From NCBI GenBank assembly GCA_964016885.1, contig OZ024742.1, forward strand, positions 158,906,001-158,970,000: a DNA stretch of 64,000 nucleotides. The letters run 5' to 3'. This DNA comes from Eledone cirrhosa. Lineage: Eukaryota. Below the pieces are notes generated by a model. The model did not search any database. It was given only the letters and a program-made list of their open reading frames with translations, and was not told where the DNA came from. The stretch's first letter is position 1. Every line of letters begins with the position of its first letter. A program made the translations under genes and the position numbers. Shown here one piece after another: positions 1 to 44,537 of the stretch.

Positions 1-203
1 ACAAGAGTAATTGTGAGAGACATAGAAACAACCATGAGACTGTTGGTGGAAATAGAAATAGAAACAACACAACTAACAATAACAATAGCACTAGTACACA
101 TAAAGCAGCAGCCTGGAACTCTACGTTTTATAATCCCTCCGATAAATCATTCGACCTGCGACGAGTCCACGCCACGACTTTACCATTTAACAAACGCACG
201 CAA

Positions 204-2497
204 TTGCCGTCGCAGGTCGATGAACAAACAGAAGCGCAATTTAGTATAGCTAGATCCGAACTTAGAAATATTATAGAACAGTATAGCAAGAAGCATAATA
301 GAATGGAGGCCCAGCAACTGGGAGAAAAATCTGCAAATGGCTTGCGTAAGCTCATGCAGCGCTCACGTAATGGAGAGATAGCATGCTTTCCAACAGACAA
401 GTCTGGCAGAATGTCGGTTGACAGCCTGCCAAACTACATCCAGGCAATGCAACCCCACATCACTAACACAAGAGAGGTAACACCACAGGAGCATGAGGAT
501 AGAGAAAAAGCCCTCAATGCCCATATGGTGATGTGGACGAATATAATGCAGCCCAACAAAAGGACTGCCAACAACTTCCAGGCCTGGAACAATGACGTGC
601 CGGCGTTGTATGGGCTTCGAAAAGACCATAAAACGGGCTGTGACCCTGTCGCGGGACCACCAACACGGCCAGTCTGTGGAGCTAACATTGCTAGTAACTA
701 GAGACTGTCCTACTTCCTCTCCCTGATCATACGCCCGATCATTGAAATGTCCCCAGATGTATGTGACAGCACGGAGGACCTCCTCAGCAGAATCGGCGGG
801 AGTAACCGATCTGGGGACCTAACAAACTGCATAATAGGCAGTATGGATGTTGTGTCCCTGTATCCATCTATTGACGTGGATTTTGCTGTGGAGAAATGCG
901 TAGAAATGATCAGTGAGAGCAAGGTTGAGTTCCGTGGGATTGATACCAGTGAGCTGGGACTCCTACTTAAGCTTACCTATAGTAATAATTACCTAGACAC
1001 ATATGACCTTAGCAGCCTGTGCCCTACAAGACCAGCAAGAGGCAGACCCCTACCATTACCTCAATGGCCAAGAAAACCCACACAGATAGATGGAACGGGT
1101 GGACCAGAGCCATACGGACACCCGAAAACCACGATGAACTGAAGAAAATGATTGCACATGCGGTAGGGGCCAGCATAAAACTAACCCTTAAGGAACATAT
1201 GTTCAAATTTAATGGAAAAATATATGCCCAAGAGGAAGGGGCAGCCATTGGTGTTAGCATTGCAGGCGACATAGCTAACTTATTCATGGTATGGTGGGAC
1301 AGTAGACTTAAACTTAAACTTAAAGAACAATTAGAAGACCCCTTAACCCTGATAATGTACTCCCGCTACGTAGATGATATAAACATCGTAGTTAAGACAC
1401 CCCCACTAGAGAACAGTCAGGAACTAGAGAAAAACACAATGGAAAGCATCCAGCAAATAGCAAACTCCATCCACCAGAACATTAGAGTTACTATAGACTA
1501 CCCAAGTAAACACCCCAACCATCGATTACCTGTACTAGACACAGAGCTCTGGTTAGATACCATTAACAACAAAAAACAAATCCTCCATTCCCATTATGCC
1601 AAACCCATGACTTCCAAACATCTGATCCACCGAAACTCGGCCGTTTCGGACCATACCAAAATCAACATACTGATTGCGGATTTGGTACGGGTGATGAGAA
1701 ATGTGTCCCGCATGTGAAACCCCGAAGAACTAGAGAGACACATACAACACTTCATCCACCGTATGCAGTTCTCTGGCTACAATCAGAGAGATAAAATCAG
1801 AGTGTATAGAGGAGCCAGAACCAAATGGGAAAAAATGGTAAATAATGACATAAATGGGACCTGCCCCTTGTATAGGAGCAAATTTTGGAATAGAATAGAA
1901 AGAACTAGGAACAAGGCTAATAGAATAAACTCATGGTATGATAGCAATAAATACCAGAGTGTAATGTTCATCGATACAACCCCTAGAGGTGAATTAGCTT
2001 ACAAATTTAGAAGGGCCCTAAATAAACATAAACTCAATATTAAGATAGTAGAAAGACCAGGTACCTCCGTAAAAACACTTATTAGCAAGACATACCCTTT
2101 TCAAAGACCCTCATGTATAGATAAGAAATGTATAACCTGTAAAAAAAGCCCCCATATTAACTGTAAAACTAGACATGTAGTGTATAGCATAAGATGTACT
2201 GAAGGACAATGTAGAGACAAAAATATAGTGTACATAGGTGAGACAGCTCGTAGTGTAGGGGAACGGATAAATGAACACTGGCGAGACCTTCAAGATAATA
2301 AAGGATCATCTGTACTCTACCAACATGCTAAAATAGAACACAAGGGTAAATTAGAGAACATAGAAATAAAAATAGAATCTACACACAGAAAAGACGCAAT
2401 GTTTAGACAAATTACAGAGGCAATAAACATAAAAGAATTACAACCAAAATTAAATAGAAAATATGAGTGGAACAGCAACATCACAACTTACAATTAA
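204..2497 (+). pseudogene. Disrupted PLE RT/GIY-YIG polyprotein
   Basis: ORFs 204-701, 747-1142, 1019-1717 and 1763-2497 join through a TAG at ~699, a frameshift near ~1050 and a TGA at ~1715. Confidence 0.9.
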
Positions 2498-2697
2498 GGA
2501 CAAAATGAAAACACACACACACATAGAACAAACAACCAACCAGTAACATGTAAATAAACAAATAAATAAATGAACATAAACACACACAGACATCCGGATG
2601 AGGCGCATGCACAGACTGAGCACACAACACACACACAGAAACAAAATGGCGTAGGACAGAACAAAGGAGAGGCACAGAAACAAAGAAAAGAATCCCC

Positions 2698-2742
2698 AGT
2701 CACTGAAGAGGTCACAAAGTGTGTGACCAAAGAACTATGACT
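2698..2742 (+). ncRNA. Degenerate hammerhead ribozyme in the PLE 3' repeat
   Basis: agtca-CTGAAGA-ggtcac..gtgacc-aaa-gaac-TA-tgact. Stems I and II pair perfectly, but the G12 of GAAA is missing. The same motif occurs at ~33871-33915. Confidence 0.55.
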
Positions 2743-2890
2743 ATATATAAACAACTATCTGGTTGTGGAACCAACCAACCAACCAGAAATTTATAAATTT
2801 ATGAATTTATTATAAATTTATTATAATAAATTGAAGTGAAAGCAACTGGTGCGTGTGTTTCTTATTGGCAACATGACCCTCCCAAAGTAT

Positions 2891-2985
<95 letters not shown>

Positions 2986-3515: not shown

Positions 3516-3718
<203 letters not shown>

Positions 3719-3759
3719 TAAATATACACGGATGTGTATGATTGTGTATAGAAGATTAT

Positions 3760-4105
3760 ATTAATAAAAGGAATTCCAACTTTGTCTCATTTACTCGTTT
3801 TATTTACAATCCTTTAAAATTATAATGATATTATAATGAAATAGTATGGTAGAATATTATATGTTAAATGATAATTGAACAAGTACTTTCATGCTTTCGC
3901 AATCTTCAGGTTCATATTCAGTGGTGACAGTCAAGTTGGCAATTTTCAACTGTAATGAACCTGATGATTGCGAAAGCATGAAACTACTTGTTCAATTAAT
4001 ATTTAACATTTAATATTCTACCATACTATTTCATTATAATATCATTATGATTTTAAAGGATTGTAAATAAAACGAGTAAATCAGACAAAGTTAGAATCCC
4101 TTTTA

Positions 4106-4110
<5 letters not shown>
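3760..4110. repeat. Family A: fold-back repeat (~155-bp arms), one HHR per arm
   Basis: The arms are reverse complements. Minus HHR 3876-3914 reads tgaac-CTGAAGA-t-tgc-gaaa-gca-t-GAAA-gtac-TT-gttca; the plus HHR is at 3956-3994. Confidence 0.85.
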
Positions 4111-4147: not shown

Positions 4148-4159
4148 TATATATATAAA

Positions 4160-5685
4160 GAATTAGTATATCTACTAACACATATATACAGATGCATACC
4201 TATGCCACCAAATATATAGGTTTTGTCTTATTAACTTTGTGGTTCAATGCATGGGGATGCAGAACAATAATATGAAAGACGTAAAATAAGAAAATTATAA
4301 AAATTAACTTACTTACTAAAATTTCACTCCAACTAATTAGTTTCTGAAAGGGAATAAACATAGTTTCCGAAGAAACGTACGGAGAAGCCTTTCGTCATCA
4401 GGGAAGTCTATTCTCAGCTAAGTTTCCAGGCAATGCGTGGACATAGGGAACTTATACAAAAATAATTCAGTGGATGGAAAAAAGCAAAGCGTGGACTAAG
4501 TTCCAAGGCTTCTCCGTACGTTTCTTCGGAAACTATGTTTATTCCATTTCAGAAACTAATTAGTTGGAGTGAAATTTTAGTAAGTAAGTTAATTTTTATA
4601 ATTTTCTTATTTTACGTCTTTCATATTATTGTTCTGCATCCCCATGCATTGAACCACAAAGTTACTAAGACAAAACCTATATATTTGCTGGCATAGGTAT
4701 GCATCTGTATATATATGTTAGTAGATATACTAATTATTTATAATTATCTCCAAATTATTTTGTCGATCAAAAATTGGCCAAAACTGCTACTATAGTTCAT
4801 AGTAACGGTTCGGCTGCTGTCTTCTTAACAAAACACTCCTCACTGATTAACCTCGATGTCACGTGATTGATTCTTTTGAATTTGCCACCGACGCAGTAGG
4901 CAGTGATTTTTTCAATGGCTTGGAACTTAGTCCACACTTTGCTTTTTTCCATCCACTGAATTATTTTTGTATAAGTTCCCTGTGTCCACGCATTGCCTGG
5001 AAACTTAGCTGAGAATAGACTTCCCTGATGACGAAAGGCTTCTCCGTACGTTTCTTCGGAAACTATGTTTATTCCCTTTCAGAAACTAATTAGTTGGAGT
5101 GAAATTTTAGTAAGTAAGTTAATTTTTATAATTTTCTTATTTTACGTCTTTCATATTATTGTTCTGCATCCCCATGCATTGAACCACAAAGTTAATAAGA
5201 CAAAACCTATATATTTGCTGGCATAGGTATGCATCTGTATATATATGTTAGTAGATATACTAATTATTTATAATTATCTCCAAATTATTTTGTCGATCAA
5301 AAATTGGCCAAAACTGCTACTATAGTTCATAGTAACGGTTCGGCTGCTGTCTTCTTAACAAAACACTCCTCACTGATTAACCTCGATGTCACGTGATTGA
5401 TTCTTTTGAATTTGCCACCGACGCAGTAGGCAGTGATTTTTTTCAATGGCTTGGAACTTAGTCCACGCTTTGCTTTTTTCCATCCACTTAATTATTTTTG
5501 TATAAGTTCCCTGTGTCCACGCATTGCCTGGAAACTTAGCTGAGAATAGACTTCCCTGATGACGAAAGGCTTCTCCGTACGTTTCTTCGGAAACTATGTT
5601 TATTCCCTTTCAGAAACTAATTAGTTGGAGTGAAATTTTAGTAAGTAAGTTAATTTTTATAATTTTCTTATTTTACGTCTTTCAT
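4160..5685. repeat. Family B1: ~530-bp HHR-containing tandem repeat with inverted 5' portion (retrozyme-like)
   Basis: An inverted partial unit at 4160-4505 is followed by ~2.2 direct units (period 530-531). HHRs at 4326-4407(-), 5019-5100(+) and 5550-5631(+) read acttcc-CTGATGA-c-gaaagg...cctttc-a-GAAA-ctaattag-TT-ggagt. Confidence 0.88.
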
Positions 5686-5715
5686 AAATATATATATATA
5701 TATACATATATATAC

Positions 5716-5860
<145 letters not shown>

Positions 5861-5861
5861 C

Positions 5862-5906
<45 letters not shown>

Positions 5907-6011
5907 TATACATATATATACATATATATATAGATATATATATATATATATAAATATATATATATAAATATATATATATATAAATATATATATATATAAA
6001 TATATATATAT

Positions 6012-7798
6012 ATGAAGACAAACATAGAATATTCGAAAATATTCTGTATGCTTATAATAAACATTTTGAAGACCTAATCGCTATAGAATAGAATACGTCA
6101 CGTATTACAATTTGAGATTCTCGATAAAAGCAAGGGAAGTAACCTACGCGTTTCATTCTTATTTGAAATCATCAGGATTACATATCCAATGCTTTTATCG
6201 AGAATGACACAGCTAGAGACTTATAGAATACTTAGCTGTGTACAGGAACTGGTTTGAAAGAGCGGTTGCCGGTCCGGCAGAAATTAGAATTTGGATTTAA
6301 TGCTCTGAAATAGCGATATATATGTGAAGACAAACATAGAATATTCGAAAATATTCTGTATGTTTATAATAAACATTTTGAAGACCTAATCGCTATAGAA
6401 TAGAATACGTCACGTATTACAATTTGAGATTCTCGATAAAAGCAAGGGAAGTAACCTACGCGTTTCATTCTTATTTGAAATCATCAGGATTACATATCCA
6501 ATGCTTTTATCGAGAATGACACAGCTAGAAACTTATAGAATACTTAGCTGTGTACAGGAACTGGTTTGAAAGAGCGGTTGCCGGTCCGGCAGAAATTAGA
6601 ATTTGGATTTAATGCTCTGAAATAGCGATATATATGTGAAGACAAACATAGAATATTCGAAAATATTCTGTATGTTTATAATAAACATTTTGAAGACCTA
6701 ATCGCTATAGAATAGAATACGTCACGTATTACAATTTGAGATTCTCGATAAAAGCAAGGGAAGTAACCTACGCGTTTCATTCTTATTTGAAATCATCAGG
6801 ATTACATATCCAATGCTTTTATCGAGAATGACACAGCTAGAGACTTATAGAATACTTAGCTGTGTACAGGAACTGGTTTGAAAGAGCGGTTGCCGGTCCG
6901 GCAGAAATTAGAATTTGGATTTAATGCTCTGAAATAGCGATATATATGTGAAGACAAACATAGAATATTCGAAAATATTCTGTATGTTTATAATAAACAT
7001 TTTGAAGACCTAATCGCTATAGAATAGAATACGTCACGTATTACAATTTGAGATTCTCGATAAAAGCAAGGGAAGTAACCTACGCGTTTCATTCTTACAA
7101 TACAGAATATTTTCGAATATTCTATGTTTGTCTTCACATATATATCGCTATTTCAGAGCATTAAATCCAAATTCTAATTTCTGCCGGACCGGCAACCGCT
7201 CTTTCAAACCAGTTCCTGTACACAGCTAAGTATTCTATAAGTCTCTAGCTGTGTCATTCTCGATAAAAGCATTGGATATGTAATCCTGATGATTTCAAAT
7301 AAGAATGAAACGCGTAGGTTACTTCCCTTGCTTTTATCGAGAATCTCAAATTGTAATACGTGACGTATTCTATTCTATAGCGATTAGGTCTTCAAAATGT
7401 TTATTATAAACATACAGAATATTTTCGAATATTCTATGTTTGTCTTCACATATATATCGCTATTTCAGAGCATTAAATCCAAATTCTAATTTCTGCCGGA
7501 CCGGCAACCGCTCTTTCAAACCAGTTCCTGTACACAGCTAAGTATTCTATAAGTCTCTAGCTGTGTCATTCTCGATAAAAGCATTGGATATGTAATCCTG
7601 ATGATTTCAAATAAGAATGAAACGCGTAGGTTACTTCCCTTGCTTTTATCGAGAATCTCAAATTGTAATACGTGACGTATTCTATTCTATAGCGATTAGG
7701 TCTTCAAAATGTTTATTATAAACATACAGAATATTTTCGAATATTCTATGTTTGTCTTCACATATATATCGCTATTTCAGAGCATTAAATCCAAATAT

Positions 7799-7831
<33 letters not shown>

Positions 7832-7915
7832 AATATATATATATATAAATATATATATAAATATATATATATATATAAATATATATATATATACATATAT
7901 ATACATATATATATA

Positions 7916-7947
<32 letters not shown>

Positions 7948-7948
7948 C

Positions 7949-8006
<58 letters not shown>

Positions 8007-8390
8007 GTGTGAGAAAATATATATATTTATATATATATATATATTTATATATATATTTATATATATATATATTTATAATATATATATATATAATTAATAT
8101 ATATAATAGATATTTGGATTTAATGCTCTGAAATAGCGATATATATGTGAAGACAAACATAGAATATTCGAAATATTCTGTATGTTTATAATAAACATTT
8201 TGAAGACCTAATCGCTATAGAATAGAATACGTCACGTATTACAATTTGAGATTCTCGATAAAAGCAAGGGAAGTAACCTACGCGAACTAGCTAAGACCTA
8301 CGTCATCTATTTGAAATCATCAGGATTACATATCCAATGCTTTTATCGAGAATGACACAGCTAGAGACTTATAGAATACTTAGCTGTGTA
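6012..8390. repeat. Family C: 312-bp HHR-containing tandem repeat, switching orientation twice (retrozyme-like)
   Basis: Units start at 6014, 6326, 6638 and 6950, are inverted from ~7100-7795, and a partial copy lies at 8110-8390. HHR gtaatc-CTGATGA-t-ttc-aaataa-gaa-t-GAAA-cgcg-TA-ggttac at 6139-6181, 6451-6493 and 6763-6805 (-), and 7280-7322 and 7592-7634 (+). Confidence 0.92.
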
Positions 8391-9023
8391 GGGTTAAGAT
8401 TCTGTTTGGGGTTAGGGTTAGGGTTAGGGTTAAGGTTACGCATTAAACAAAATAAACATAAGTTCAGAGTTAGGGTTAGGGTTAGGGTTAGCGTTGCGGT
8501 TAGGTTTAACCATTAAGTAAAGTAAGCATATGTTTAGTGTTAATGTTAGAGTTCGGGTTAAAGTTAGCATTAAGGTCAACCATTAAACCAAATAAGTTAT
8601 ATATGTTTAGGGTTAAGATTAGGGTTAGCTTTAGGGTTAGGGTTAGGGTTGGGGTTAGTGTTAAGGTTAGCCATTAAGCAAAATAAGCATATGTTAAGGG
8701 TTAGGGTTAAGGTTAGCCCTTAAACAAAATAAGCATATGTTTAGGACTAGGGTTAGGTTTAGGGGCAGAGTTAAGGTTAGCCATTAAACAAAATAAGCAT
8801 ATGTTTAGGGTTAATGTTATGGTTAAGGTTAACCCTTAAACTAAATAAGCATATTTTATGGTTAGTGTACGGGTTAGGGTTAACTATTCAACAAAATAAG
8901 CATATGTTTAGGGATAGGGTTAGGGTTAAGGTTAGCTATAAAAGAAAATAAACATAAGTTTAGGGTTAGAGTTAGGGTTCGGGTTGGGGCTAACCATTAA
9001 GCAAAATAAACATGTGGTTAGGG
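8391..9023 (+). repeat. Degenerate TTAGGG-containing compound minisatellite
   Basis: Runs of ttaggg/ttaagg alternate with ccattaaacaaaataagcatatgt; roughly a dozen units of ~40-60 bp. Confidence 0.85.
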
Positions 9024-9359: not shown

Positions 9360-10279
<920 letters not shown>

Positions 10280-10560: not shown

Positions 10561-10566
<6 letters not shown>

Positions 10567-11283
10567 GGAATAGAATGAAACGAAATTTCATTTCTCACTC
10601 TTAGTACGGCACTTACTTAAATGTAAGTATGTATGTATACGTACATACATATATGTATACAGACGTATAGTAGTATGTATATATATGCATACATGCACAC
10701 ATATATATATGCACGCATCGGTTTACCGAACATTTATTATAATGCTCGGTTTGTTTGTTTGTAAACAAACAAACAGCCAGAATTACGCCGTACAGTGTTT
10801 AGGCAACCACGTCTTCTTTTTGTTCAACACTGACACAGGAACGATGTACAAGTTTCAAGCTTATTAGCTATCGTCAGCATCGTATACCTTCCTGCCAGAT
10901 GGTTGAACGTCTGAAAGTATATACTTTCCTTATGCATATTAACGGCTGAGCAGCCTAATTTGTATATCGAGTGAGTTCAGTCGGCCGGGCGCACCGAAAA
11001 CCATCTGACAGGAAGGTATACGATGCTAACGATAGCTAATAAGCTTGAAACTAGTACATCGTTCCTGTGTCAGTGTTGAACAAAAAGGTGACGTGGTTGA
11101 TTAAACACTGTACGGCGTAATTCGGGCTGTTTGTTTGTTTACAAACAAACAAACCGAGCATTATAATAAATGTTCGGTAAACCGATGCGTGCATATATAT
11201 ATATGTGTGCATGTATGTATATATATACATACTACTGTACGACTGTATACAGATATGTATGTACGTATTCATACATACATACT

Positions 11284-11290
<7 letters not shown>
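10561..11290. repeat. Family E: ~440-bp HHR repeat, fold-back
   Basis: Inverted arms. HHR cgatg-CTGACGA-t-agct-aata-agct-t-GAAA-c(t/a)..g-TA-catcg at 10842-10882(-) and 11021-11061(+, core mutated to CTAACGA). Confidence 0.85.
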
Positions 11291-15914: not shown

Positions 15915-16070
15915 TATTAACAAATGGAAACTATATTTATATTTATAAAACCATATTTATTTCATTATACATATTTCAAGGACACCAAAGCAAATTATGG
16001 TGCGCTTTCATCAGATAAAATATAATATAGATCAGTTTTATAAACAAATATTGACATACCCTTAAAGAAT
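15915..16070 (-). repeat. Family F PLE terminal-repeat copy with HHR-like core
   Basis: Homologous to 36130-36380, 42277-42420, 44115-44350, 48735-48932 and 49598-49995. CTGATGA...GAAA core on the minus strand. Confidence 0.7.
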
Positions 16071-16476
16071 GCGACCATTTCGGTTGGAAGCTCCCGGATA
16101 GTGGGGTTACTAATTTTATTATTGGTCTATTATGCGGAGAGGTTTAAATCCCATACATTTAAATTAAGCCGTTGGAATAGGGGAAAAATAAAAAGAAAAA
16201 GAAAGAAAGAGCAAACCCAAAGAAGGAAAACAAAAGAAAGGAAAGAGAAAGAGAGAAAACCCTAAGTGAGAGAGCGTTGTATTAACGTAATTTTATGAGA
16301 TGATGAAGCGAAAAGATAAATACATAGTGGATGAATTACGCGGAGTAAATAAAGCGTGGATAAAAAATAAATAAATATGAATAACCGGAGAATTTTATCT
16401 ATGTTTAAATTTGATTAAATTATTGAGATCTATGAATTAAAAATTGAGATCTATATATTATTAAAAGAATATATAT

Positions 16477-16544: not shown

Positions 16545-17230
16545 GTTATTCCGGGTTGAATCGGTGGTAACCACAGTAAGTAAGGTACTCAATACATAGC
16601 AGAGTATAAAAGTATAAAAGTTTTAATATAGATGAGATTCTACAGGACTAGAACTGTTTCATTCATTAGAAATCATCAGGAATCTGGGTATCAAAAAGTA
16701 AATATGGTATTTATAGGTCTCTACAAGTGGTAGGAGAGGGTGGGGAGTGGGATGGGTGCAGGTCATTGGTTGATAGAAAAGGGAATTCATTAAAAGCTAA
16801 TTCTACAAAGCTATAGTTTATTTTTATTTATTTATGTTTTTAGAGTAACAAGGGCAGACAGAATTCTATAAACAGGTTCCGGATGGCATACCATTCCTTG
16901 TCATTAAGTTTCTCTTAAGCTAACAGATGTCTATAAAATCAGTGGGGGGTCAGTCATGGTCGGTAGAATTAAAGAAAAGGGAGATTCTTTAAAAGCTAAA
17001 ATCATTAAGGTTCTACTAAGTGACAAAGGTCTAGAGAATTCTGTAGACAGATTCAAAATACTGAGTGCATATCTTACTATTATCTTCGAACTTCTCTTAA
17101 ACTAATCAACTATATGCCAAAAATCAACAGACACATTCACAAAAAAACAAAAAAACACATACTCACACACTTACGCACAACCATAAACACACACACAAAC
17201 ACATATACACACATAAAAACACACACACAT
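16545..17230 (-). repeat. Inverted PLE terminal repeat containing a complete HHR
   Basis: 16705-17230 is the reverse complement of 27830-28357. HHR at 16635-16685(-): agattc-CTGATGA-t-ttc-taat-gaa-t-GAAA-cag-ttctagtc-ctg-TA-gaatct. Confidence 0.85.
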
Positions 17231-17244
17231 ATATATATATATTA

Positions 17245-17673
17245 AAAAAATGCCCACTTGAAAACAAATGCCTCACAAATGACATCGTATACAAATGCGA
17301 TGTCATCTCAGGCACCGAGGATTGCAAAAAAACTTACATCGGCATGACCTCCAACAACTTTAAGACCCGTTGGTATGCCCATACCCACTCCTTCAGTAGA
17401 CCGGATAAATCAAATCAGACAACACTCGCCTCCTACGTTTGGGACCTCAAAAGGAACTCCACCCCCTTCACGCTTAATTGGAAAATACTCCAGAAGGCGC
17501 GCTCTTACAACGGAGGACACAAGGGCTGCGACCTTTGTATTTCAGAGAGCTACGAAATTTTATTCGCCAAGGGCCCGCTACTGAACAAACTCTCTGAACA
17601 CTGCCCGAACTGCATGCACAAGAACTTTGCAACTTTCAAACACTTTAAGCCAGTGTTAAAGCCCGATGGCTAA
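17245..17673 (+). pseudogene. PLE GIY-YIG endonuclease C-terminal fragment
   Basis: CPLENKCLTNDIVYKC...TYIGMTSNNFKTRWYAH...CDLCISE...CMHK. Confidence 0.85.
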
Positions 17674-20889: not shown

Positions 20890-23800
20890 CCAATTCAATG
20901 ATGTTCCAGAACAATGTAAACGAGATAAATGCCAATTTGGGTTCTGGAACAAAAGAGATCATTGGCAATAAGGGCAGGGGCCCCAAGTTATCACAACCTG
21001 GGCCCGTCCGTCATCGTGCCATTGTAATAGAGCCAAACAGGGCATTTAGTCTTGGCTGCTGGAACGTACGGACGCTGCTTGACAGGGATTCTTTGGAGCG
21101 TCCTGAACGAAGGACCGCTCTTGTTGCGAAGGAGCTTCGACGTTACGATCTTGACATCGTGGCTTTGTCTGAGACGAGGTTAGCTGGAGATGGTCATCTT
21201 ACGGAATTTTGTGGAGAATATACATTCTTCTGGAAAGGAAGAGATGAAGGAACCAGAAGAGAGGCTGGGGTAGGATTTGCTGTTAAGACTGTACTGGTGA
21301 ATAAATTGGAAGAATTCCCAGTGGGGATTAGTGAGCGTCTTATGTCCATGAGAGTTCCGCTGGACAAGGGAAGATATGCTACCCTGGTGAGTGTGTATGC
21401 TCCAACTATGAATTCTGTCGATGAAGAAAAACTGTCCTTTTACCATGCCTTGAAAGGTGTTTTAAGAAATATCCCTCAGGCAGACAAAGTCATCGTGCTT
21501 GGTGACTTTAATGCTAGAGTGGGTAGGGATTTTAACACATGGAATGTAATCGGAAGGCATGGGGTGGGAAAGTGTAACAGCAATGGTATGCTCTTGCTGC
21601 AGATGTGTGAGGAGCTGGATCTGTGTGTTACCAACACCATGTTCCAACAAAAGAACAAATTCAAGACCACATGGATGCATCCTGCATCTAAGGAATGGCA
21701 TCTTTTGGACTACGTCCTAGTCAGGATGCGTGACAGACAGGATGTGCGGTGTGTTCGTGTTCTTCGTGGAGCTGAGTGCTGGACGGACCACCGCCTGGTA
21801 CGCGCAAAAGTGAATCTAATCACCAAACGTAAAATCCGGGCTCCTGGTGTTACCCTGCCCAAAAGATTGAATGCTGCTCGTCTTAAGGATAAAAATGTGA
21901 AGAGGACATTGGAAGAAGAGATGCAGGCTGCAGATCTTGGTGAGGATTGGCCGACCCTTAAAAAGTCGGTTTATGATGTAGGCAGACGTGTTCTGGGATT
22001 GGTGCAGAGAAAACATCAGGACTGGTTTAATGAGAAAGATGTGCATATAGATGACTTGTTGGCTGATAAGAGGCGCGCTCTGTCACGCTACTTGACGGCA
22101 AGACCACAGGAGAGGAATACGTTGCATGAGGAGCTCAGGGATGTAAAATCACGTGTTAGGCGGAGTCTTTCTCAGATGAAGGATCAGTGGTGGAGTGAGA
22201 AGGCTGGTGAGATACAAACTGCGTCTGATTGCAATAACACAAAGCTGTTGTACAGTCTCTTGCGTGAGGTTTATGGACCGTCTTCTTCTCTGGTGACACC
22301 GATTCGCAGCAGGGATGGCAAAGAACTTCTTCGTGACTCACAGGGAATTCTACGAAGGTGGCGGGAGCACTTTGATGATCTTTTGAATCAGCCGTCTGTC
22401 GTCAGTGAAGATTTCCTCAATCTCATTCCGGAAAGTCCTGTGAAAGTAGCTCTCGCAGAGCCTCCGACACTTGTGGAGGTTGCAGTGGCTATTTCGAAGC
22501 TGAACAGTGGAAGATCTCCAGGTATGGATGGCATACATGCTGAGCTCCTACAATATGGTGGTGAGAGACTCCTGCAACATCTTCACTCTCTGTTTGGAGG
22601 GATATGGGCTAATGAATCCGTGCCTGAGGACTGGAGAGATGCAGTAATGGTGGTCTTGTACAAGGGAAAGGGTAACAGGAATGATTGTGGGAACTACAGA
22701 GGTATATCATTGCTTTCTGTCGTGGGGAAAGTTTTATGTAGGGTGCTTCTGGACCGTCTGCTGACACACATTGCAGATTGTGTCCTTCCTGAAAGTCAAT
22801 CTGGTTTTCGTGTTGGACGCGGCACTACTGATATGGTCTTCTCAGCTAGACAGCTCCAGGAGAAGTGCATTGAACAGGGCTTGGATCTGTATCAGGTTTT
22901 TGTCGATCTGACAAAGGCTTTCGATACTGTCAACAGAGATGCATTATGGAAGGTTCTCCAGAAACTTGGTTGCCCTGATAAGTTCCTTGCTTTAGTTAGG
23001 TCTTTCCATGACGACATGAAGGCTTGGGTTAATGTCGGAGGTAACATGTCGGAGCCTATCTCAGTAAAAAATGGAGTGAAACAGGGGGATATTCCAGCAC
23101 CGACCCTGTTTGCCATATACTTTGCAATGGTTTTCTGTGTTGCATTCAGGAATTGCGAGCATGGTGTTTACATCCGATATCGAACCTCAGGCAGCATATT
23201 TAACATCAGGCGCTTTGCTGCGAAGACAAAAGTATTTACATCAGTCATAAGAGACCTCTTGTATGCAGATGATTGCGATCTTGTAGCGCACACAGAGAGT
23301 GATATGCAGCACATTTTGAATGTATTTTCTGACGCTTGCACTGCCCTGGGTTTGACTGTCAGTCTCAAGAAAACCGTCGTCATGTACCAACCTGCACCTG
23401 GTAGGCAGTACACTGAACCAAACATCTATGTGTATGGCGAGCGACTTGGAGTGGTTGATCAGTTTGTCTACCTGGGAAGCACTGTCAATCGATACGGCAA
23501 CCTTGACGGTGAAATCTCACTTAGGATTAGGAAAGCAAGTGATGCTTTCGGAAAGCTAGAAAGGCGACTCTGGGGTCGGCGAGACATATGCAGGAGGACA
23601 AAGGTAAAGGTGTACAGGGCATGTGTACTCTCTTGTCTTCTTTATGCCTGCGAGACCTGGGTCACATATCGACGCCACCTTGAGCAATTGGAGCGTTTCC
23701 ATCAGATGTGTCTCAGACGGATACATGGCGTTCGCTGGAGGGACCACATCAGTGATGTCGAGATTTTGGAAAGCTCTATGTGTGACAGTATAGAAGCTCT

Positions 23801-24451
23801 TGTGCTTAGGCAGCGACTCCGTTGGAGTGGTCACCTTGCCAGGATGAAGGATTCTAGAATACCAAAACAACTCTTCTATGGAGAGTTGGTTAAAGGAAAA
23901 CGACCGCCACATAAACCAAAAAAGAGGTATAAGGATTCCTTGAAGGCCTCTCTGAAAGACGCTAACATCTCTGCTGATACATGGGAAAATATTGCTGCTG
24001 ATCGTAATAAATGGAGAAAGACTGTATATGAGGGAAAAGTTGCCTTTGAGGCATCTCGAATCGCACACGAGAAAGTAAAGCGGGACGTGAGGAAGGGTAT
24101 TGCTGTTGCACTTCCAGACGGCGAGGGTCCTCCTATGTTTCTGACATGCAGCGTCTGTGCGAGACTCTGCCTAAGCAAAGCTGGACTCGAAAGTCATCTT
24201 CGCAGTCATAAAGTAAGACCAGTGGTTGACTACCAGGCTGCTGTTGGAGATGCTACTCATCATGCTTGCCAAACATGTGGTAGAGAATGTAAATCAGCAG
24301 GAGGACTCAAGCGACATGCAAAAGTACACGAACTCCAACCACAGCCGACTATTCCCAGTAAATGTTTTGGTTGCCGACTCTGTGCAAGACATTTTGGATC
24401 ATTGGCTGGGCTAAAAAGCCACATTCGATCGCAGCACTGTTAGTTGCTATC

Positions 24452-29110: not shown

Positions 29111-31378
29111 ATATAAAATAAAATATGAGTTTTAATTTTAAAAAGGATTATAATTTTAAAAGGAATTAGAATTTTTAAAAAAGATATAATTATATAATTA
29201 TAAAAGGAATTATATTTTTAAGCAATGTAATTTTTAAGCAATATAATTTTTAAGCAATATAATTTTAAAATATATATATAAGAATATATAGAAAAAACAG
29301 TATAAAATATGAATTATAATTTTTTATATCCATCAGAGGAATTAACAAAAAATCTTTTTTTTAGAAACTTTCAGTATGTTTATCTTAATTTTTTATACCC
29401 ATTTAAAAAAAATCTTTCAGTATGTTTATCTAGAAGAATTTTTAATGAAAAATTTTAATGAAAAATTTTTTCTTCATTTAAGAGAGTTTTTGGCAGTCGT
29501 ATGAAGGAATCTAATGATTTATCGATAGGTTTAATAAGATGAGTAATATATTACATTTTAAATTTATATTTAAACGTTGAATTTAATCTATGTTTGCAGC
29601 AACTGAAAAGATTGTTCCTTAAATTCACAGAATTTTTGCTTTTTAATATAAAGAATATTTCCTCTATACAAAGAGCACAATTTTCCGAAGAGGCATTAAA
29701 TGGAGGAGCTTTGGAGATAATATTGCAAAGTAAAGAATAGTTAATGTTCTTTAATTTTAGATCCCATAGTAAGCTAGATAGAGAAGTTGAAGATTTTTTT
29801 ATTTATATTCGTAAAATAGCATTTATGGTTATTAAAACGAGATTTAAAGTCTGTGGAAGTAGAACCTACATAATTAAATGAATTTAAATTAGTTTTTACA
29901 TTACAATTATATACTATATTTCTAGCTAAACAATTGTTATTTAACTGACAGTTAGATTTATTTCTACAGTTACATTTATCAAAATTCAAGTTACGAGGAG
30001 CCGTATTATTAAATTGGCTATTGCTGGGGTTATTAATGGTATTCTGGTTAGGTTTTAAGTTTCTATTATTAATTCTATTAATATTCTGCCCTAAATTAGT
30101 GGTGGTTGAATAAGTTAATTGTATAGTATGTCTATTAAATATTGAGTAATATCTATGTGTTCTAGGGAAGCATTTGTCAAGAGCTTTGAAGAATAGTTTA
30201 GCAATAGGAGTTTTAATATTTAATGAGAAAGGAGGAACGAACCATAATATATTCCTAGTTCTATTTCTTTTTTGGTTTTTCGAATTATTGTAAGCCAAGT
30301 TACTGCTATTTAGGTTATTTCTCCCATAGGGGTTGAGTTTTTTGTTGTTAGAGGAGACGATGTTTTGTGCAAAGTTTGGTGTGGTGCTGTAGGAGAGTTT
30401 GATGGTATTTTTGTTAATTATTTTGTGGTAGCGGTGTTGTAGTGGGAAGTGTTTTTCAATGAGCCTAAAAAAGATTTTCCCGATAGGAGTTGTCACCTCA
30501 GCGTTGTGGGGAGGATTGAACCATGTTACATTGCGTGAGCGGCGGTGTCGCCTGCAGGTTCCTCGAATATCTGCTCATTAGCGGACAAATGAGATATGCG
30601 GAGGGAGTTGTTTTTAGCCAGGTTATTGGTGATGTTCCTGGGATGGTTTGACCGGCGGTGGATGTAGTGCAGGTTGTCGTTGGGTTTCCAGTATGGGTAG
30701 AACAGATCATTTTCGAGGTCAGGGGAACGTCCAGGAAGTTTACTCGGGTCAGGGACGTTTGTAGGGTTATTTTAAATCCCCAGTCGCAGAAGAAGCTGAT
30801 TAATTGTTTACGGACCCGGTCTGTACTACTGGGGTTGTACCCTTTAAGGGTAAGGAGCCCATCATCACGGTACAATCCACCACCGAATGCAGGAAACATA
30901 TCGGTGAGTTTAGCTAGTAGGAATAATCCTATAAGATCTGTGACCTCAGCCGAATCCGTCGCGCCCATGCTGACATCGAAGAGTGAGTCGGGAGCTCTCT
31001 TTATCCATTTGGAGTTGTCGAAGAGTAGGACTGTCTTCCTGGCGTGGAGGATGATGTTTCTTTCCTGGTCGGTGATGGGCGCAAGTGTTTCGGCAAAGTC
31101 CAAGGCAACCGTAAGTAGCGGTAAGGTAATTGAAGCATAGTAACTCTTTTGACCAATCCTTGTGACAATCACTTTTACCATATATGGAATTACCCCCTGA
31201 GAAGCTCGGCTATTCATATACCAGGATAAATATTTTCATTTAGTCCAGAATTAGCCGTAGAAACGGCTTGAGCTCAGCCGTCGGAGTCCTACTCGTTCCT
31301 ATTACCCACTCTACTACCTTAAGTATTGAGTACTTTGGTGCGTTATGGTCCACCTGGTTCCTTACCACATTTCCTTCG

Positions 31379-33497: not shown

Positions 33498-33510
33498 TTA
33501 TATATAATAT

Positions 33511-34127
33511 AAGGGTAAATTAGAGAACATAGAAATAAAAATAGAATCTACACACAGAAATGACGCAATGTTTAGACAAATTACAGAGGCAATAAACATA
33601 AAAGAATTACAACCAAAATTAAATAGAAAATATGAGTGGAACAGCAACATCACAACTTACAATTAAGGACAAAATGAAAACACACACACACATAGAACAA
33701 ACAACCAACCAGTAACATGTAAATAAACAAATAAATAAATAAATGAACATAAACACACACAGACACCCGGATGTGGCGTATGCGCAGACTGAGCACACAA
33801 CACACACACAGAAACAAAATGGCGTAGGACAGAACAAAGGAGAGGCACAGAAACAAAGAAAGGAATCCCCAGTCACTGAAGAGGTCACAGAGTGTGTGAC
33901 AAAAGAACTATGACTATATATAAACAACTATCTGGTTGTGGAACCAACCAACCAACCAGAAATTTATAAATTTATAAATTTATAAATTTATAAATATATA
34001 ATAAATTGAAGTGAAAGCAACTGGTGCGTGTGTTTCTTATTGGCAACATGACCCTCCCAAAGTATAACAATATCGGTTTCAACACACGATTTCAGATAAA
34101 GAATCTTGCTAAACAAATTCAGAAACG
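33511..34127 (+). mobile_element. Second copy of the 3' end of the PLE at 1-2893
   Basis: Near-identical to 2342-2893 and extends ~55 bp further 3'. Confidence 0.92.
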
Positions 34128-34501: not shown

Positions 34502-34870
34502 AGAAACTAGTACAGCGTTCCTCTGTCAGTGTTGAACAACCGAGCAACGATGGTTGCTAGACACTACGGCTTAAAACGGGATGTTTGTTTACAAACACAC
34601 GGAGCATTATAATAAATGTTCGGTGAATCCATACGTACATGTATATGCGTGCATGTATGTATATATATATACATACTACTGTACGTCTGTATACATATAT
34701 GTATGTACGTGTACATACTAAATATTTAAGTAACAGCCGTACTAAGAGTGGGAAATGAAATTTCGTTTCATTTTTTTCCGTTTATCGTTTTCGGTGCACC
34801 CGGCCGATTAACGCACTCGATATGCAAATTGGGCTACTCAGCCGTTAATATGCATAAGGTAAGTATATAT
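34502..34870 (+). repeat. Diverged family E unit, starting within the HHR (GAAActagTA)
   Basis: Homologous to 11047-11290 and to the reverse complements of 10561-10625 and 10915-11000. Confidence 0.8.
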
Positions 34871-34899: not shown

Positions 34900-36380
34900 A
34901 GAGAGAATTAAAATTTTAAATTATTTTTATTTTTTATTTTATTTGTTTTGACTCTGATAGCTTCTAATAACTTTCATATGTCTACCCTTGCAATATCTTG
35001 TTTGAGATATAGGTAGGATAGATTTTTATAATAAATATATAAAACATATTATTTTAACTTGAGATACTCTATAGTGTTTTAGAGATATTTAATGCTTTGA
35101 TATTTCTATATTAATATATTGATATTTGATTATCTCTATACAAAGGCCATATGTGTGTATTAACATGCATATAAAAGTTTTATAGGGTTTATTTATGTGT
35201 TTGTATATATGTCTGCATATATGCATAACGATGCTGGAAGACTCACGCAGATTTTTATTTATACATATGTATGTGTATATATGGTTGTGTGTGTATATGT
35301 TGATGTGTGTTGCAGATATGCATAATATTAAATACATAAACGGTAATCATATATATGAGGACATGAATATTAATGGTATTTTTATGTATATATACTGTGA
35401 AATTTTTATAACACTAGAAATGTATAGAAGGAATCAAGTGAAATCATTTGTGTGTCTATATTATTGACTGGAGTAGACATAATTTTATTTTTTCAGGACG
35501 TACATATGTGTGTATATATATATATACATACTTGTATCCGTATTTTTATAAATAGGGTATTTTTTTAAGGTTTTAACTCAGATTTTGGTATATTGACCTC
35601 AAGGTTTTAAACTAAACATATGGTCATTATTGAACAATGTTATTTTCTCATATTATATATCTATCTCCCATTCATGAATATTGATATTTACATTTTTATT
35701 ATTCATTTCATATGAATTGTTAACTCAACTTAATATGATATGACGTAAGGTTGTCACTATATCCCCCTCTCTCTATATAGTATTTCCTATCTCTTGACTT
35801 TCTCTATCTGTATGATGAATTATTATCTCTCTGTTGCTTTCTTTTGTTTTTCTTATTTCTTCCTTTTTCTTTCTTTTTTTATTTCCTCCTATCTATTTAT
35901 ATCTTTCTTTTATTTCCTCCTATCTATTTATATCTTTCTTTTCTACATACATTTCTCTCTCTCTCTCCGGTATTTCTCCAGGTTTTCTTTTTCTCTCTCT
36001 CCTTCTTTTTCTCTCTCCTTATCTCTCTCCGTTTTTTCTTTCTCTCCGTCTTTTTCTAACTGTGCTTAACACTATAACTAATAAAATAATTTTAAACATC
36101 TCACTATCCAGACAGCTTCCAAAAATAATGGTTGCATCTAATAGGGTACGTCAAAATTATATATAAAACTGTTTATATATTGTATTTTGTCTGATGAAAG
36201 CATACCATATTTTAATTTGGTATCCCTGAAATATGTATAATGAAATAAATATGGTTTTATAAATATAGTTTCCATTTATTTAATATCGTATATCTACTCC
36301 AAAAACTTGTCGAGTGCTTTATATCAGTTATAAAATATTTACTTGTTGTATCCCAACAATTTTAAATAGAACTTTTGCAT
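34900..36380 (+). mobile_element. PLE 3' UTR/terminal repeat fragment (family F)
   Basis: Shares blocks with 43300-44350 (e.g. cattcatgaat.ttgatatttacatt and a CT-rich tract). HHR-like ctgatga...gaaa at ~36191-36240. Confidence 0.65.
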
Positions 36381-37246: not shown

Positions 37247-40200
37247 TCATTATCTATAAAAGGCAGATTTTTATGTCTGTATGTATGTTTCAATTTTATA
37301 CATTTACACAATTCCAAAAATATTGAATGAATAATTAAGCAGAATGTTTACAAATATTCTAACTTGGGTCATGGGCGAACTTATTGGTTTAAAAAATGCC
37401 ACAATTACGGAAAAATCGATTTATTTCAACAATCGATGATTTCTCCTCTCTCATATGATATACGTTTCCTATATCTACTCCCTTCATCACCTCCCTTTAA
37501 AATTGCTACCTTCTCTTATAAGTGTTTGTGAAAAAGAGAAACATTGAAAAAAAACATATACACACATATATGTGGGTGCATACACACGCGTATATGTTGG
37601 TATGGTTACGATTGAGGTCATAGAAACAGGAACGCGGGAATTTCAATCAATCAACGCATACACAGTTTGTTTTAAAAATAACAATAGCATATAATGATAA
37701 AGAGGAAGAGAGAGAAACAAACAGACACACTAAAAGACGGATATATGTGTGTGTGTTTGTATTAGCGCGTTCAAACTCCATTTCGAAGCTGACTTTCATT
37801 TACTAAACTGTAAGTTTTTCAATCGGCCTTACACTTTCAAACTATATTTTTCTGTATAAGTAACTTTAACCTTTTAGTTTCGACATAAAAATACACACAT
37901 ACATACAAAGACCTGTAAAGTTTTTTGGGGCGCCTTTCTTATCAATATTTTTACATTCAATTATCAGCCTTATACTTTCAAAGTCAATTTTTATGTTGAA
38001 GTAACTTTCAACCTTTAATACATACATACATACATACATACATACATACATACATACATACAACCTTTAATACATACATACATACATACATACACACATA
38101 CATACATATACACACATACATACAAATACCTGTCACTTAATTTACACACACATCGGCCTTACACTTTCAAACTAAATTTTTCTGTAGAAGTACCTTTAAC
38201 TCTTTCTTTTCAACATAAAAATACACACATACATACAAATACCTGTACATTTTTTTTTTGGGGGGGGGGGGGCCTTTCTTATCAATCTTTTTACATTCAA
38301 TTATCAGCCTTATACTTTCAAAGTCAATTTTTATGTTGAAGTAACTTTCACCCTTTATTTTTCGATACCCATTTACTCACTAACATTTGTATCACAACAA
38401 CAATAACAATATTCATAAACAGACAGTAGACTTTCAAAGTCAATTTTTCTGTAGAAGTAACTTTCACCCTTTCTTTTGGACATAAAATGCCACCTAAAAA
38501 GAGGAGTCGCCTCAGTCAACATACCGCGTCAGCGGTGGCGCAAAAGTCTACTATATCAAACGAGTCCTCTGAGGAAAATGCTTCAAGACTTTCACAGACA
38601 GCCTTACGTTCAGCAGAATGTCGAGCCGCTGAAAGTTTCCAACAGCACACCGCACGCCTAGCCAAAATGGCTTCATACCAGGCTTCTTCCAGGGCTTCAG
38701 AAGCGCCTGGCTAGAAACGATGCGACTAATGCTGCTTCCAGGTCTTTGGAACGTTTAAAACAACGGACGGCTCGCCTTCCTACGAACGCTGCGGCTATGA
38801 CTACTTCCATAGCTTCTGAAGATGCAGACGGGCGGTCTATTAGCATTGCAAATGTTGCTTCTGCTATTTCTGCCAGACCTTCCCACCAAACACACGACCA
38901 ATGTTCTACGTTCAAGCGTAACAGTCGACGGCGAGAAGCTGCACGCGGTGTGACGAGCCCCAACAGCCCTTACTGGCACCTACGGGCTTTCAAGTATGAG
39001 CAAAACGTTAATTACTCGATGCGCTCTGACATAAATATAGGCGAGATGCGCTTCAATTGCCAATTCTGCAATGCTAAGTGGGCTGGGGAGCCACCTGCAA
39101 TGTGCTGCTTAAACGGTAAGGTAACCTTGCCCCCTCTTACGGAACTGCCAGAGCCTTTGAAGGAACTACTGACTGGTTATACCTCAAGGTCAAAAAATAA
39201 AACCCTGATCCCCCCCAATAAAAAACGCTGCTGGGGGTACCGGAAAAACTTTTGTAACGAATTTGATTCTCGCTAAGATTCGTCAGGAGAAAAAAGTTGC
39301 GTTGTCCGTTGCATCGTCCGGGATCGCTGCTACTTTGCTGCCGGGAGGCAGGACAGCACATTCAACCTTTAAAATCCCTTTGGATTTAGTAAAAACTGAG
39401 ACACCAACATGCAATATCAGCAAGAGTTCACACAAAGCTCTGGTTCTCAAAAGATGTTGCCTCATTGTTTGGGATGAGTGCACAATGGCCCACAGGGGTG
39501 CCCTTGAGGCATTGGACAAGGCCCGGAAAGACATTAGGGATTCTACGGCTCCTATGGGTGGCGTAACCCTTCTGCTATCAGGGTATTTTCGGAAAACGCT
39601 GCCTGTCATCCACAAAGGGACAAGAGCTGATGAAGTGCGTGCCTGTCTTAAGTCGTCCATGTTGTGGCTCCAGGTGAATAGTTTGTACCTGAGCACAAAT
39701 ATGCGTGCTCATTTGCATGGTGACAACATGTCTGCAGCACAGAACATTTTACCACTTGGTGAGGGCAAGATCCCTGCGGATGACAAGGGCGGCATAGCAA
39801 TCGACACCCTGTGCAACATTGTGAGCAGCCCTTCTTACCTTTGGGAAGCAGTTTTTCCTAATGTCTCATCTAACTTTAAAAACCACGATTGGCTCAGCGA
39901 AAGAGCCATCCTTGCTCCGAAAAATACCATGGTTAATTTTATTAACGAGCAGCTGATTGAGAAGATTCCCGGTAAAGAGCACATCTTCAAATCAGACCCC
40001 GACGATATCGTTAATTATCCGGTTGAGTTATTAAATCTCCTTGAGCCTCCAGGGCTCCCACCTCAAATTATTAAGCTTAGGGTTGGCTGTCCCATTATGC
40101 TAATAAGGAACTTGCGTCCACCAAAGCAGTGCAACGGTACTCGCATGGTCGCCAAGTCACTGACACCCACTTGATTGAGGCCACCATTGTAACGGGGTGC

Positions 40201-41052: not shown

Positions 41053-41054
41053 TA

Positions 41055-41325: not shown

Positions 41326-41358
<33 letters not shown>

Positions 41359-42142: not shown

Positions 42143-44537
<2,395 letters not shown>

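What the first reader, a model, noticed from the sequence alone, without database searches (positions are those of the whole stretch)
6012..7795. Family C: near-identical 312-bp tandem units with a dimer-type hammerhead (palindromic stem III ACGCGT)
Five complete HHRs lie in almost identical units, suggesting recent origin. Stem III is a 6-nt palindrome too short to be a stable hairpin but able to pair between adjacent copies, as is known for dimeric minimal HHRs. Stem I is extended by a perfect 16-bp helix (attctcgataaaagca/tgcttttatcgagaat). Other families use different palindromes at the same place: AGTACT, ACTAATTAGT, ACAAGGCCTTGT, ACTAGT, ACGTACGT. Palindromy, not sequence, is what is conserved.
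Basis: partly seen in the sequence, partly recalled or inferred. Interest (0 to 1): 0.78.

Follow-up and report, generated by a model that had tools for sequence, protein, structure and literature searches.

The report
Hammerhead retrozyme with Penelope insertion signature
A very young, non-coding 312-base repeat carrying a self-cutting RNA motif belongs to a known class of animal mobile elements (retrozymes), but its back-to-back, two-armed insertion into TA repeats has the shape that Penelope-like retrotransposons leave, which points to the enzyme that copies it.

Summary
The five type I hammerhead motifs, the palindromic helix III and the perfect 16-bp helix are real and not chance (0 hits in 5000 unit shuffles). 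The array is not a simple tandem. It has two arms of 3.5 and 2.2 units, joined 5'-to-5' at 7097/7100, both 3' ends on (TA)n and 27-36 nt apart in the unit. An inverted copy, a 30-40-nt tail and a (TA)n target are the published insertion signature of Penelope-like elements (PLEs). All 8 two-armed hammerhead islands in the window show it, 4 of them with multi-unit arms. This is a new member of the animal non-LTR retrozymes. Dimer-dependent cleavage through a palindromic helix III is already known for that class, and folding energies favour it here (8.0 versus 23.1 kcal/mol penalty). Cleavage, expression and RNA circles are untested, and no partner PLE was identified. The useful addition is structural evidence that PLE machinery inserts retrozyme arrays in one event, possibly from a circular template. 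Six literature searches found no such report.

The parts
6012..7097 (-). Left arm, 3.48 units of 312 bp. 5' end at unit position 296 (17 nt before a cleavage site), 3' end at the 'short' site (unit 132-141, an (AT)4 tract) against (TA)n
7100..7796 (+). Right arm, 2.23 units. 5' end at unit position 96, 3' end at the 'long' site (unit 168) against (TA)n
7098..7099 (.). 5'-to-5' joint of the two arms; 2 bases that continue neither arm
6117..6205 (-). Type I hammerhead 1 with 16-bp closing helix (C3 at 6175, cleavage after 6145)
6429..6517 (-). Type I hammerhead 2 (C3 at 6487, cleavage after 6457)
6741..6829 (-). Type I hammerhead 3 (C3 at 6799, cleavage after 6769)
7053..7097 (-). Partial sixth hammerhead (3' half only: GAAA, palindrome, cleavage site at 7081), cut by the 5' end of the arm
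7256..7344 (+). Type I hammerhead 4: 16-bp helix 7256-7271/7329-7344; UAU/U bulge; helix I 7280-7285/7317-7322; core 7286-7292; helix II with U.U base and 6-nt loop 7293-7306; palindrome 7310-7315; cleavage after 7316
7568..7656 (+). Type I hammerhead 5 (C3 at 7598, cleavage after 7628)
7447..7524 (+). Segment most conserved between families C and D (unit 131-208, 73-88% per 26-nt bin). Holds both 3'-end sites; candidate recognition and initiation region for the reverse transcriptase (inferred)
7761..7796 (+). 'Tail': 27-36 nt present at the end of the right arm and absent from the end of the left arm
5684..6011 (.). (TA)n microsatellite, left flank and probable target
7797..8112 (.). (TA)n microsatellite, right flank
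8113..8390 (-). Third piece of family C, same haplotype. Ends at the same 'long' site (unit 168); hammerhead broken by a small rearrangement at helix II/III and the cleavage site
9362..10170 (.). Family D: collinear homologue of C (316-317-bp unit, 61% of alignment columns identical). Same two-arm, tail, (TA)n architecture; different hammerhead (U3-A8 core, 12-nt palindrome)

Best explanation
A non-autonomous, non-coding retroelement of the animal non-LTR retrozyme class, inserted recently in one event by the reverse transcriptase and GIY-YIG endonuclease of a Penelope-like element. SHOWN in sequence: hammerhead anatomy; compensatory conservation of its helices; two arms joined at their 5' ends; both 3' ends on (TA)n at two fixed sites 27-36 nt apart; cDNA that runs through the cleavage site several times. 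INFERRED cycle: (1) the array is transcribed as a multimer; (2) neighbouring hammerheads swap helix I strands and pair their palindromes, so cleavage happens mainly in multimers and releases 312-nt monomers; (3) a host ligase may close these into circles in which a lone hammerhead is nearly silent; (4) the PLE protein nicks both strands of a (TA)n tract and primes two cDNAs, one at each site flanking the tail; (5) both copy more than one unit, from a circle or an uncleaved multimer, and are joined where they stop. Odds: retrozyme inserted by PLE machinery about 0.8; dimer-enhanced cleavage about 0.65; circular rather than linear multimeric template about 0.45.
For: Motif and chance controls. 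The 16-bp helix keeps all 16 pairs between C and D, with 7 two-sided and 2 one-sided changes and 0 broken. Helix I keeps 6 of 6 pairs, 5 changed on both sides, in a hammerhead with the same helix II stem and helix III in metagenome locus L001. Circular fold z = -5.9 (C) and -6.3 (D). Active dimer penalty 8.0 against 23.1 kcal/mol; a lone hammerhead in a circle costs 11.6. Architecture: 8 of 8 two-armed islands are 5'-to-5', end on (TA)n at both sides (B' with a short CT run before it) and have one short and one long end. The same pair of sites is reused in independent insertions (B and B', C and D, G and the EN-bearing island 42275-44349). In run X1, 9 contigs end at the short site (7457) and go on in (TA)n. 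Two copies of a coding PLE in the window (RT at 1013-1717; GIY-YIG-like protein at 1718-2497) end on (AT)n 54-58 nt apart. Published PLE signature: inverted 5'-truncated copy, 30-40-bp tail, (TA)n bias (PMC8557442); the tail equals the distance between two RT start sites (PMC11167929). Retrozyme definition (PMC7229834).
Against: No cleavage, expression or circle data. No sequence link to a coding PLE: blastn of the unit against the window finds only C, D and a 28-nt hammerhead-core match, and no whole genome is held. The minimum-energy fold of a single hammerhead is an inactive one, and even the dimer sits 8 kcal/mol above the ensemble. Only 1 of 9 Xenopus retrozyme dimers cleaved in vitro, and the anole PLE hammerhead needs protein and is dispensable for insertion. 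The window's copies carry A at the first base of loop 2, where 99.8% of contig depth in X1 has U and D and L001 have C, so they may be a weakened variant. Helix I of D has one broken pair. Tails in the other families (40-127 nt) mostly exceed the published 30-40 nt. Several hammerhead islands are single-armed (8113-8390, 15918-16470, 34503-34869, 35942-36379, 41054-41326, 48720-48935), so the inversion is not obligatory. Assembly polishing could inflate identity between copies.
Confidence: 0.8

Rival explanations
1. A single pLTR-derived unit was inserted and then amplified locally at the DNA level (tandem duplication, unequal crossing-over) into a minisatellite, as proposed for retrozymes in the 2026 preprint; the inversion is a later DNA rearrangement.
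For: The preprint argues for local amplification after a PLE lands. Near-identity of neighbouring units is also expected from recent DNA duplication. The third piece at 8113-8390 shares the haplotype, which suggests some local secondary event.
Against: It does not explain why 8 of 8 two-armed islands are 5'-to-5' with one short and one long end, nor why both arms are multi-unit, non-integer (3.48 and 2.23) and of one haplotype, with unrelated 5' break points.
Confidence: 0.1
2. PLE-inserted, but copied from an uncleaved linear multimeric transcript. The hammerhead is a weak or protein-dependent passenger and no circular intermediate is used. This differs from the best explanation only in template and ribozyme role.
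For: For the anole PLE, hammerhead mutants do not affect insertion and unprocessed RNA is the main substrate. None of the three 5' ends here (unit 296, 96, 215) falls at the cleavage site. The monomer fold is inactive.
Against: Core and helices are kept with compensatory changes across C, D and L001, which implies selection on the ribozyme. Linear templates would only shorten arrays over generations. Circles are documented for coral, mussel and axolotl retrozymes.
Confidence: 0.35
3. The hammerhead cleaves efficiently as a monomer, helped by loop 1-loop 2 contacts and the 16-bp helix; the palindrome is incidental.
For: Most invertebrate retrozyme hammerheads cleave well as monomers. The 16-bp helix should trap the local monomer fold during transcription (inference). 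Family D's 12-nt palindrome can form a 4-bp hairpin and its monomer penalty is only 5.8 kcal/mol.
Against: Helix III here can form only 1 bp plus a palindromic tetraloop, as in axolotl HHR_Amex1 (6% monomer cleavage), and helix II has the U.U base of HHR_Amex2 (22%); both improve as dimers. Energy gap of about 15 kcal/mol.
Confidence: 0.25
4. Assembly artefact (fold-back chimera or mis-joined repeat).
For: Inverted repeats in low-complexity DNA are error-prone, and no contig in the runs laid spans the array (only one unit was laid).
Against: The arms are out of register and of different length, the outer flanks differ, the same family-specific ends recur in independent islands, and the short end recurs in 9 contigs of a public run.
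Confidence: 0.04

Closest known systems
Animal non-LTR retrozymes (Cervera and de la Pena 2020, PMC7229834; coral 220-245 nt, mussel 350-390 nt, axolotl 330/350 nt)
   Same: Non-coding, low-GC, head-to-tail unit of about 300 nt with one canonical type I hammerhead; highly self-paired monomer; weak palindromic helix III as in HHR_Amex1; U.U at the base of helix II as in HHR_Amex2
   Different: Two inverted arms with a tail and (TA)n flanks, which the passages I read do not describe; both weakening features in one ribozyme; RNA not demonstrated
Penelope-like elements with endonuclease (Penelope/Poseidon, Neptune, Naiad; Craig et al. 2021, PMC8557442; Frangieh et al. 2024, PMC11167929)
   Same: Inverted 5'-truncated copy at the 5' end, 30-40-nt tail on one end only, microsatellite target, partial tandems, type I hammerhead
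   Different: No ORF (longest stop-free stretch 56 codons); unit of 312 bp; canonical rather than minimal hammerhead
Non-autonomous Chlamys elements such as MRC1 (PMC8557442, passages)
   Same: Non-coding elements producing pLTRs and multi-copy head-to-tail insertions by PLE machinery
   Different: Green algal; the clade mostly lacks canonical hammerheads; they resemble autonomous partners at their 3' ends, whereas no partner was found here
Xenopus and other vertebrate retrozymes as PLE derivatives (Li, Clavereau and Pollet 2026, bioRxiv 10.64898/2026.07.22.740005)
   Same: Same class and same proposed donor machinery
   Different: Their evidence is co-occurrence and pLTR homology, and they favour local tandem amplification; the text has no mention of tails or inverted arms

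Membership tests
Type I hammerhead ribozyme | Conserved core CUGANGA / GAAA / UH | tested here: met
   intact in 5 of 5 complete copies
Type I hammerhead ribozyme | Helix I open-ended, about 6 bp, with an adjacent internal loop | tested here: met
   6 bp plus UAU/U bulge; 6 of 6 pairs kept in L001 and 5 of 6 in D
Type I hammerhead ribozyme | Helix II of about 4 bp starting with G10.1-C11.1 | tested here: inconclusive
   3 bp on a U.U mismatch, so not the usual pair; the same variant is published for axolotl HHR_Amex2 and recurs in families A, E and L001
Type I hammerhead ribozyme | Rfam model score above gathering | tested here: not met
   0 hits at gathering; HH9 20.1 bits against cut-off 52
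Type I hammerhead ribozyme | Self-cleavage after the UH | not testable with these tools
   needs a cleavage assay or raw RNA reads
Dimer-dependent (short helix III) hammerhead | Palindromic helix III too short for a hairpin but stable as a duplex | tested here: met
   hairpin 0.0, self-duplex -7.5 kcal/mol; dimer fold favoured by about 15 kcal/mol
Dimer-dependent (short helix III) hammerhead | Faster cleavage as dimer than as monomer | not testable with these tools
   experiment needed
Non-LTR retrozyme | Tandem units of 150-450 bp, each with a type I hammerhead, at least two consecutive | tested here: met
   312 bp; 3 and 2 consecutive
Non-LTR retrozyme | Non-coding, GC below 50%, no LTR structure | tested here: met
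   longest stop-free stretch 56 codons; region GC 0.30
Non-LTR retrozyme | Highly self-paired monomer | tested here: met
   62% paired, circular z = -5.9
Non-LTR retrozyme | Dispersed multi-copy family | tested here: inconclusive
   441 contigs with many variants in run X1; its kind is not on record and no genome is held
Non-LTR retrozyme | Expressed as linear and circular monomer RNA | not testable with these tools
   only contigs of runs of unrecorded kind were available
PLE-mobilised insertion | Inverted 5'-truncated copy joined at the 5' end | tested here: met
PLE-mobilised insertion | 30-40-nt tail at one end only | tested here: met
   27-36 nt in C, 22-32 nt in D
PLE-mobilised insertion | Microsatellite target | tested here: met
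   (TA)n on both sides and in 9 contigs of X1; perfect (TA)5+ runs make up 14.6% of the window
PLE-mobilised insertion | Sequence similarity to the pLTR or 3' end of an autonomous PLE | tested here: inconclusive
   none within the 64-kb window; rest of the genome not available
Autonomous PLE | RT plus GIY-YIG ORF | tested here: not met
   no ORF in the unit

The most novel reading that the evidence does not exclude
The array is a one-step fossil of rolling-circle retrotransposition. A PLE protein, possibly a dimer, primed two cDNAs from the two strands of a cut (TA)n target at two fixed sites of a 312-nt ribozyme-made RNA circle. It copied the circle 3.5 and 2.2 times and joined the cDNA ends. 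The 78-nt segment conserved between C and D would be the hijacked recognition and initiation module, and the dimer-only hammerhead a switch that cuts multimers but spares the circle. This would be direct structural evidence that animal retrozyme arrays are written by PLE enzymes from circles rather than grown as satellites.
Probability: 0.4. Interest if true: 0.75.

Novelty: new member of a known kind. Interest (0 to 1): 0.5.

Why it matters
Which enzyme mobilises animal retrozymes, and whether their arrays come from rolling-circle reverse transcription or from DNA-level amplification, is stated as open. A 2020 review says the repeats show no conserved motif that would identify the partner (PMC7761336), and the 2026 preprint rests on co-occurrence and homology. 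This locus and its neighbours supply an insertion signature, two mapped initiation sites and a conserved candidate recognition segment. These can be tested directly with the published in vitro PLE system. The dimeric-hammerhead point on its own is textbook.

Tried and rejected
Rfam at gathering threshold: no hit; the microRNA hits at E-value thresholds are low-complexity noise. No whole genome is held, so copy number and partner PLE could not be tested. Sequencing runs: no RNA holder listed, which is no evidence on expression. Contigs of 342 and 340 nt in runs X4 and X6 close on themselves over one unit; a tandem DNA repeat gives the same picture, so I did not count them as circles. Summed depth in X1 was not turned into a copy number. 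The long 3' end could not be checked in X1 because it lies 13 bases from the start of the stretch laid. The viral contig scan gave 0 matches. The metagenome scan gave 3 loci that share only the 31-nt core; L003 lacks a matching helix I and was left out of the pair counts, and L002 repeats L001. RNA polymerase III boxes: no convincing A/B pair in the unit. The long-helix comparison was one base out of register for D and was redone; only one search is used. Pfam did not detect GIY-YIG in any of the four endonuclease-like frames; that assignment rests on visible motifs and the atlas lead (13-18% of cluster members). Lunse et al. 2017 is not held. Earlier notes by place, by sequence and by eight words returned nothing.

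Full report
OBSERVATION. The window is AT-rich, microsatellite-rich eukaryotic DNA with decayed retroelement frames; no genome is held. A descriptor scan finds five identical type I hammerhead motifs in 6012-7796, three on the minus strand and two on the plus strand. Each has a 6-bp helix I, the core CUGAUGA, a helix II of 3 bp on a U.U mismatch with a 6-nt loop, GAA, the palindrome ACGCGU and A17. Beyond helix I lie a UAU/U bulge, 3 bp, a 2x2 loop and a perfect 16-bp helix. The descriptor hit 0 of 5000 dinucleotide shuffles of the unit, and 2 times in 30 shuffles of the microsatellite-stripped window against 10 real hits. Rfam gives nothing at gathering threshold and only a 20-bit HH9 match.

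ARCHITECTURE. Numbering the unit from the cleavage site (position 1 = 7317), the left arm runs on the minus strand from 7097 (unit 296) to about 6012 (unit 132-141), 3.48 units with 2 clear mismatches. The right arm runs on the plus strand from 7100 (unit 96) to 7796 (unit 168), 2.23 units with none. Two bases that continue neither arm join them. The arms therefore meet at their 5' ends and both 3' ends abut (TA)n, 27-36 nt apart in the unit. A third piece at 8113-8390 ends at the same long site and has a broken hammerhead. No 5' end lies at the cleavage site, and the copies run through that site four times on the left and twice on the right, so the template was not a single pass over a cleaved linear monomer (inference).

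THE PATTERN RECURS. Of 17 islands examined, 8 have two inverted arms of one hammerhead-bearing family: A 3717-4110, B 4158-5686, B' 45508-46371, C, D 9362-10170, E 10564-11290, G 49598-49992 and 42275-44349. All 8 are joined 5'-to-5', end on (TA)n and have one short and one long end. Tails are 40-44, 113, 122-127, 34-35 (27-36 allowing for AT microhomology), 22-32, 57, 86-87 and 88-90 nt. Random orientation would give 8 of 8 with probability about 0.004; the islands fall into five family groups, so the true figure is weaker. Four of them (B, B', C, D) have more-than-unit arms and are retrozyme-like; the others may be pLTR pieces. The other 9 stretches examined show no inverted arm pair of the same kind; several are single-armed hammerhead pieces, and one is a 989-bp tandem without a detected hammerhead. 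A coding PLE lies at 1-2898, with a weak RVT_1 match and a GIY-YIG-like frame (atlas score 0.97, family on 13-18% of cluster members). It and its second copy at 33502-34127 end on (AT)n 54-58 nt apart, which serves as an internal positive control.

CONSERVATION. Family D is collinear with C over the whole unit but has a different ribozyme: a U3-A8 core and a 12-nt palindrome. All 16 pairs of the long helix survive, with 7 two-sided and 2 one-sided changes. Helix I keeps 5 of 6 pairs. The best-conserved stretch is unit 131-208 (88, 77 and 73% per 26-nt bin, against 38-73% elsewhere), and it contains both 3'-end sites. D ends at the homologous positions. Two of 3 metagenome loci carry a hammerhead with the same helix II stem and helix III palindrome and an unrelated helix I in which 6 of 6 pairs hold (L001).

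PUBLIC RUNS. Six runs hold the unit, none on record as RNA; I laid 4 of the 6. X1 has 441 contigs on it with many variants, and 9 of them end at 7457 (unit 141) and go on in (TA)n. No variant listed touches the catalytic core or the palindrome; the helix I variant makes a G.U pair, and three variants fall in loop 2. The window's loop 2 allele is 0.2% of summed depth in X1, yet all complete window copies share it. This fits a single template for both arms if organism A is the same species, which I do not know.

MECHANISM OF CLEAVAGE. In a two-unit transcript (7240-7660) the double hammerhead is a nested fold: swapped helix I strands, the two palindromes paired. It lies 8.0 kcal/mol above the free ensemble, against 23.1 for two active monomers. 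Without helix III pairing the swapped fold costs 14.1. A lone hammerhead costs 11.6, in a linear or a circular monomer. These models ignore Mg2+ and tertiary contacts, and the 16-bp helix may trap the local fold during transcription.

COMPARISON WITH THE LITERATURE. PMC4209133 (parts 1-2 of 4 read) defines canonical metazoan type I hammerheads as helix I 6 bp, helix II 4 bp and helix III 1-2 bp with a palindromic loop, working as dimers. PMC7229834 (results and discussion read; its supplement could not be read, and may show insertion structures) defines non-LTR retrozymes, shows circles, reports the U.U variant and names PLEs as candidates. PMC8557442 (passages) and PMC8969392 (passages) give the PLE signature of inverted copy, tail and microsatellite bias, and note non-autonomous Chlamys elements. 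PMC11167929 (parts 1-2 of 4) shows cleavage of both strands at AT-rich DNA, two internal RT start sites that bound the tail, a predicted protein dimer, and a hammerhead that is protein-assisted and not needed for insertion. bioRxiv 10.64898/2026.07.22.740005 (abstract to discussion; supplements not seen) links retrozymes to PLEs by co-occurrence and pLTR homology, favours local amplification, and found 1 of 9 dimers active; 'tail' and 'head-to' occur 0 times in it. PMC7761336, PMC6765202 and PMC8490949 were seen as passages. Lunse et al. 2017 and Forster et al. 1988 were not seen and are known here only through these papers. Six full-text searches returned no paper that, in its listing or the passages I read, describes inverted arms and tails on retrozyme arrays. 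Most subscription papers and Repbase entries are outside the library, so this is a limited negative. An earlier unchecked note of this scan (e1-7810660) reports a similar PLE-type pattern for a tRNA-bearing repeat in another genome.

VERDICT. Real, recent, and a new member of a known class. The two-arm, tail, (TA)n architecture is the informative feature: it ties retrozyme arrays to PLE enzymes and gives mapped sites for a direct test. Interest 0.5.

Noticed in passing
window 9362-10170: Family D, homologue of C, has a U3-A8 variant hammerhead core and a 12-nt palindrome that could also form a monomer hairpin; the ribozyme has diverged while the candidate initiation segment is kept.
   Followed up: yes
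window 4158-5686 and 45508-46371: Families B and B' (530 and 543-bp units) have hammerheads with a very long helix II, a C.A mismatch at its base, the same 10-nt palindrome, and tails of 113-127 nt, far longer than the published 30-40 nt.
   Followed up: partly
window 8270-8310: In the third family C piece the hammerhead is broken by a small rearrangement that repeats the bases around the cleavage site; it could be a scar of RT stalling or repair at the cleavage or ligation junction.
   Followed up: no
window 8391-9023: A 46-70-bp minisatellite rich in TTAGGG-like telomeric units is joined directly to the 5' end of the third family C piece.
   Followed up: no
window 3909, 3961, 10877, 11026, 16679: The U.U mismatch at the base of helix II recurs in families A and E and in the motif at 16679, so it is a common hammerhead variant in this genome.
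   Followed up: partly
window 1-2898 and 33502-34127: Coding Penelope-like element broken by a frameshift and stops, with a CxxC-rich linker (Neptune-like by recall) and an imperfect minimal hammerhead near 2703; two copies end 54-58 nt apart on (AT)n.
   Followed up: partly
window 17101-17673, 29774-31235, 42354-42896: Further decayed PLE-like RT and endonuclease fragments, assigned by visible motifs only; Pfam gave no relevant hit.
   Followed up: no
window 20895-24443 and 60272-63712: LINE with an intact 1182-aa frame (AP endonuclease, RT, C2H2 fingers) and a 92% identical decayed copy.
   Followed up: no
window 38662-40488: Broken PIF1-type helicase frames, probably a Helitron remnant.
   Followed up: no
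window 47040-48600: 989-bp unit in 1.6 tandem copies between (TA)n tracts, with no inverted arm and no hammerhead found by my descriptors.
   Followed up: no
L001 1512-1572, L002 1390-1459: A hammerhead with the same helix II stem and helix III palindrome as family C but a different helix I lies downstream of eukaryotic coding sequences in metagenome-collection contigs.
   Followed up: partly
window 41100-41150 (minus strand): Degenerate hammerhead with a U3-A8 core, a GC-rich helix II and an 8-nt palindrome but only 2 bp of helix I.
   Followed up: partly
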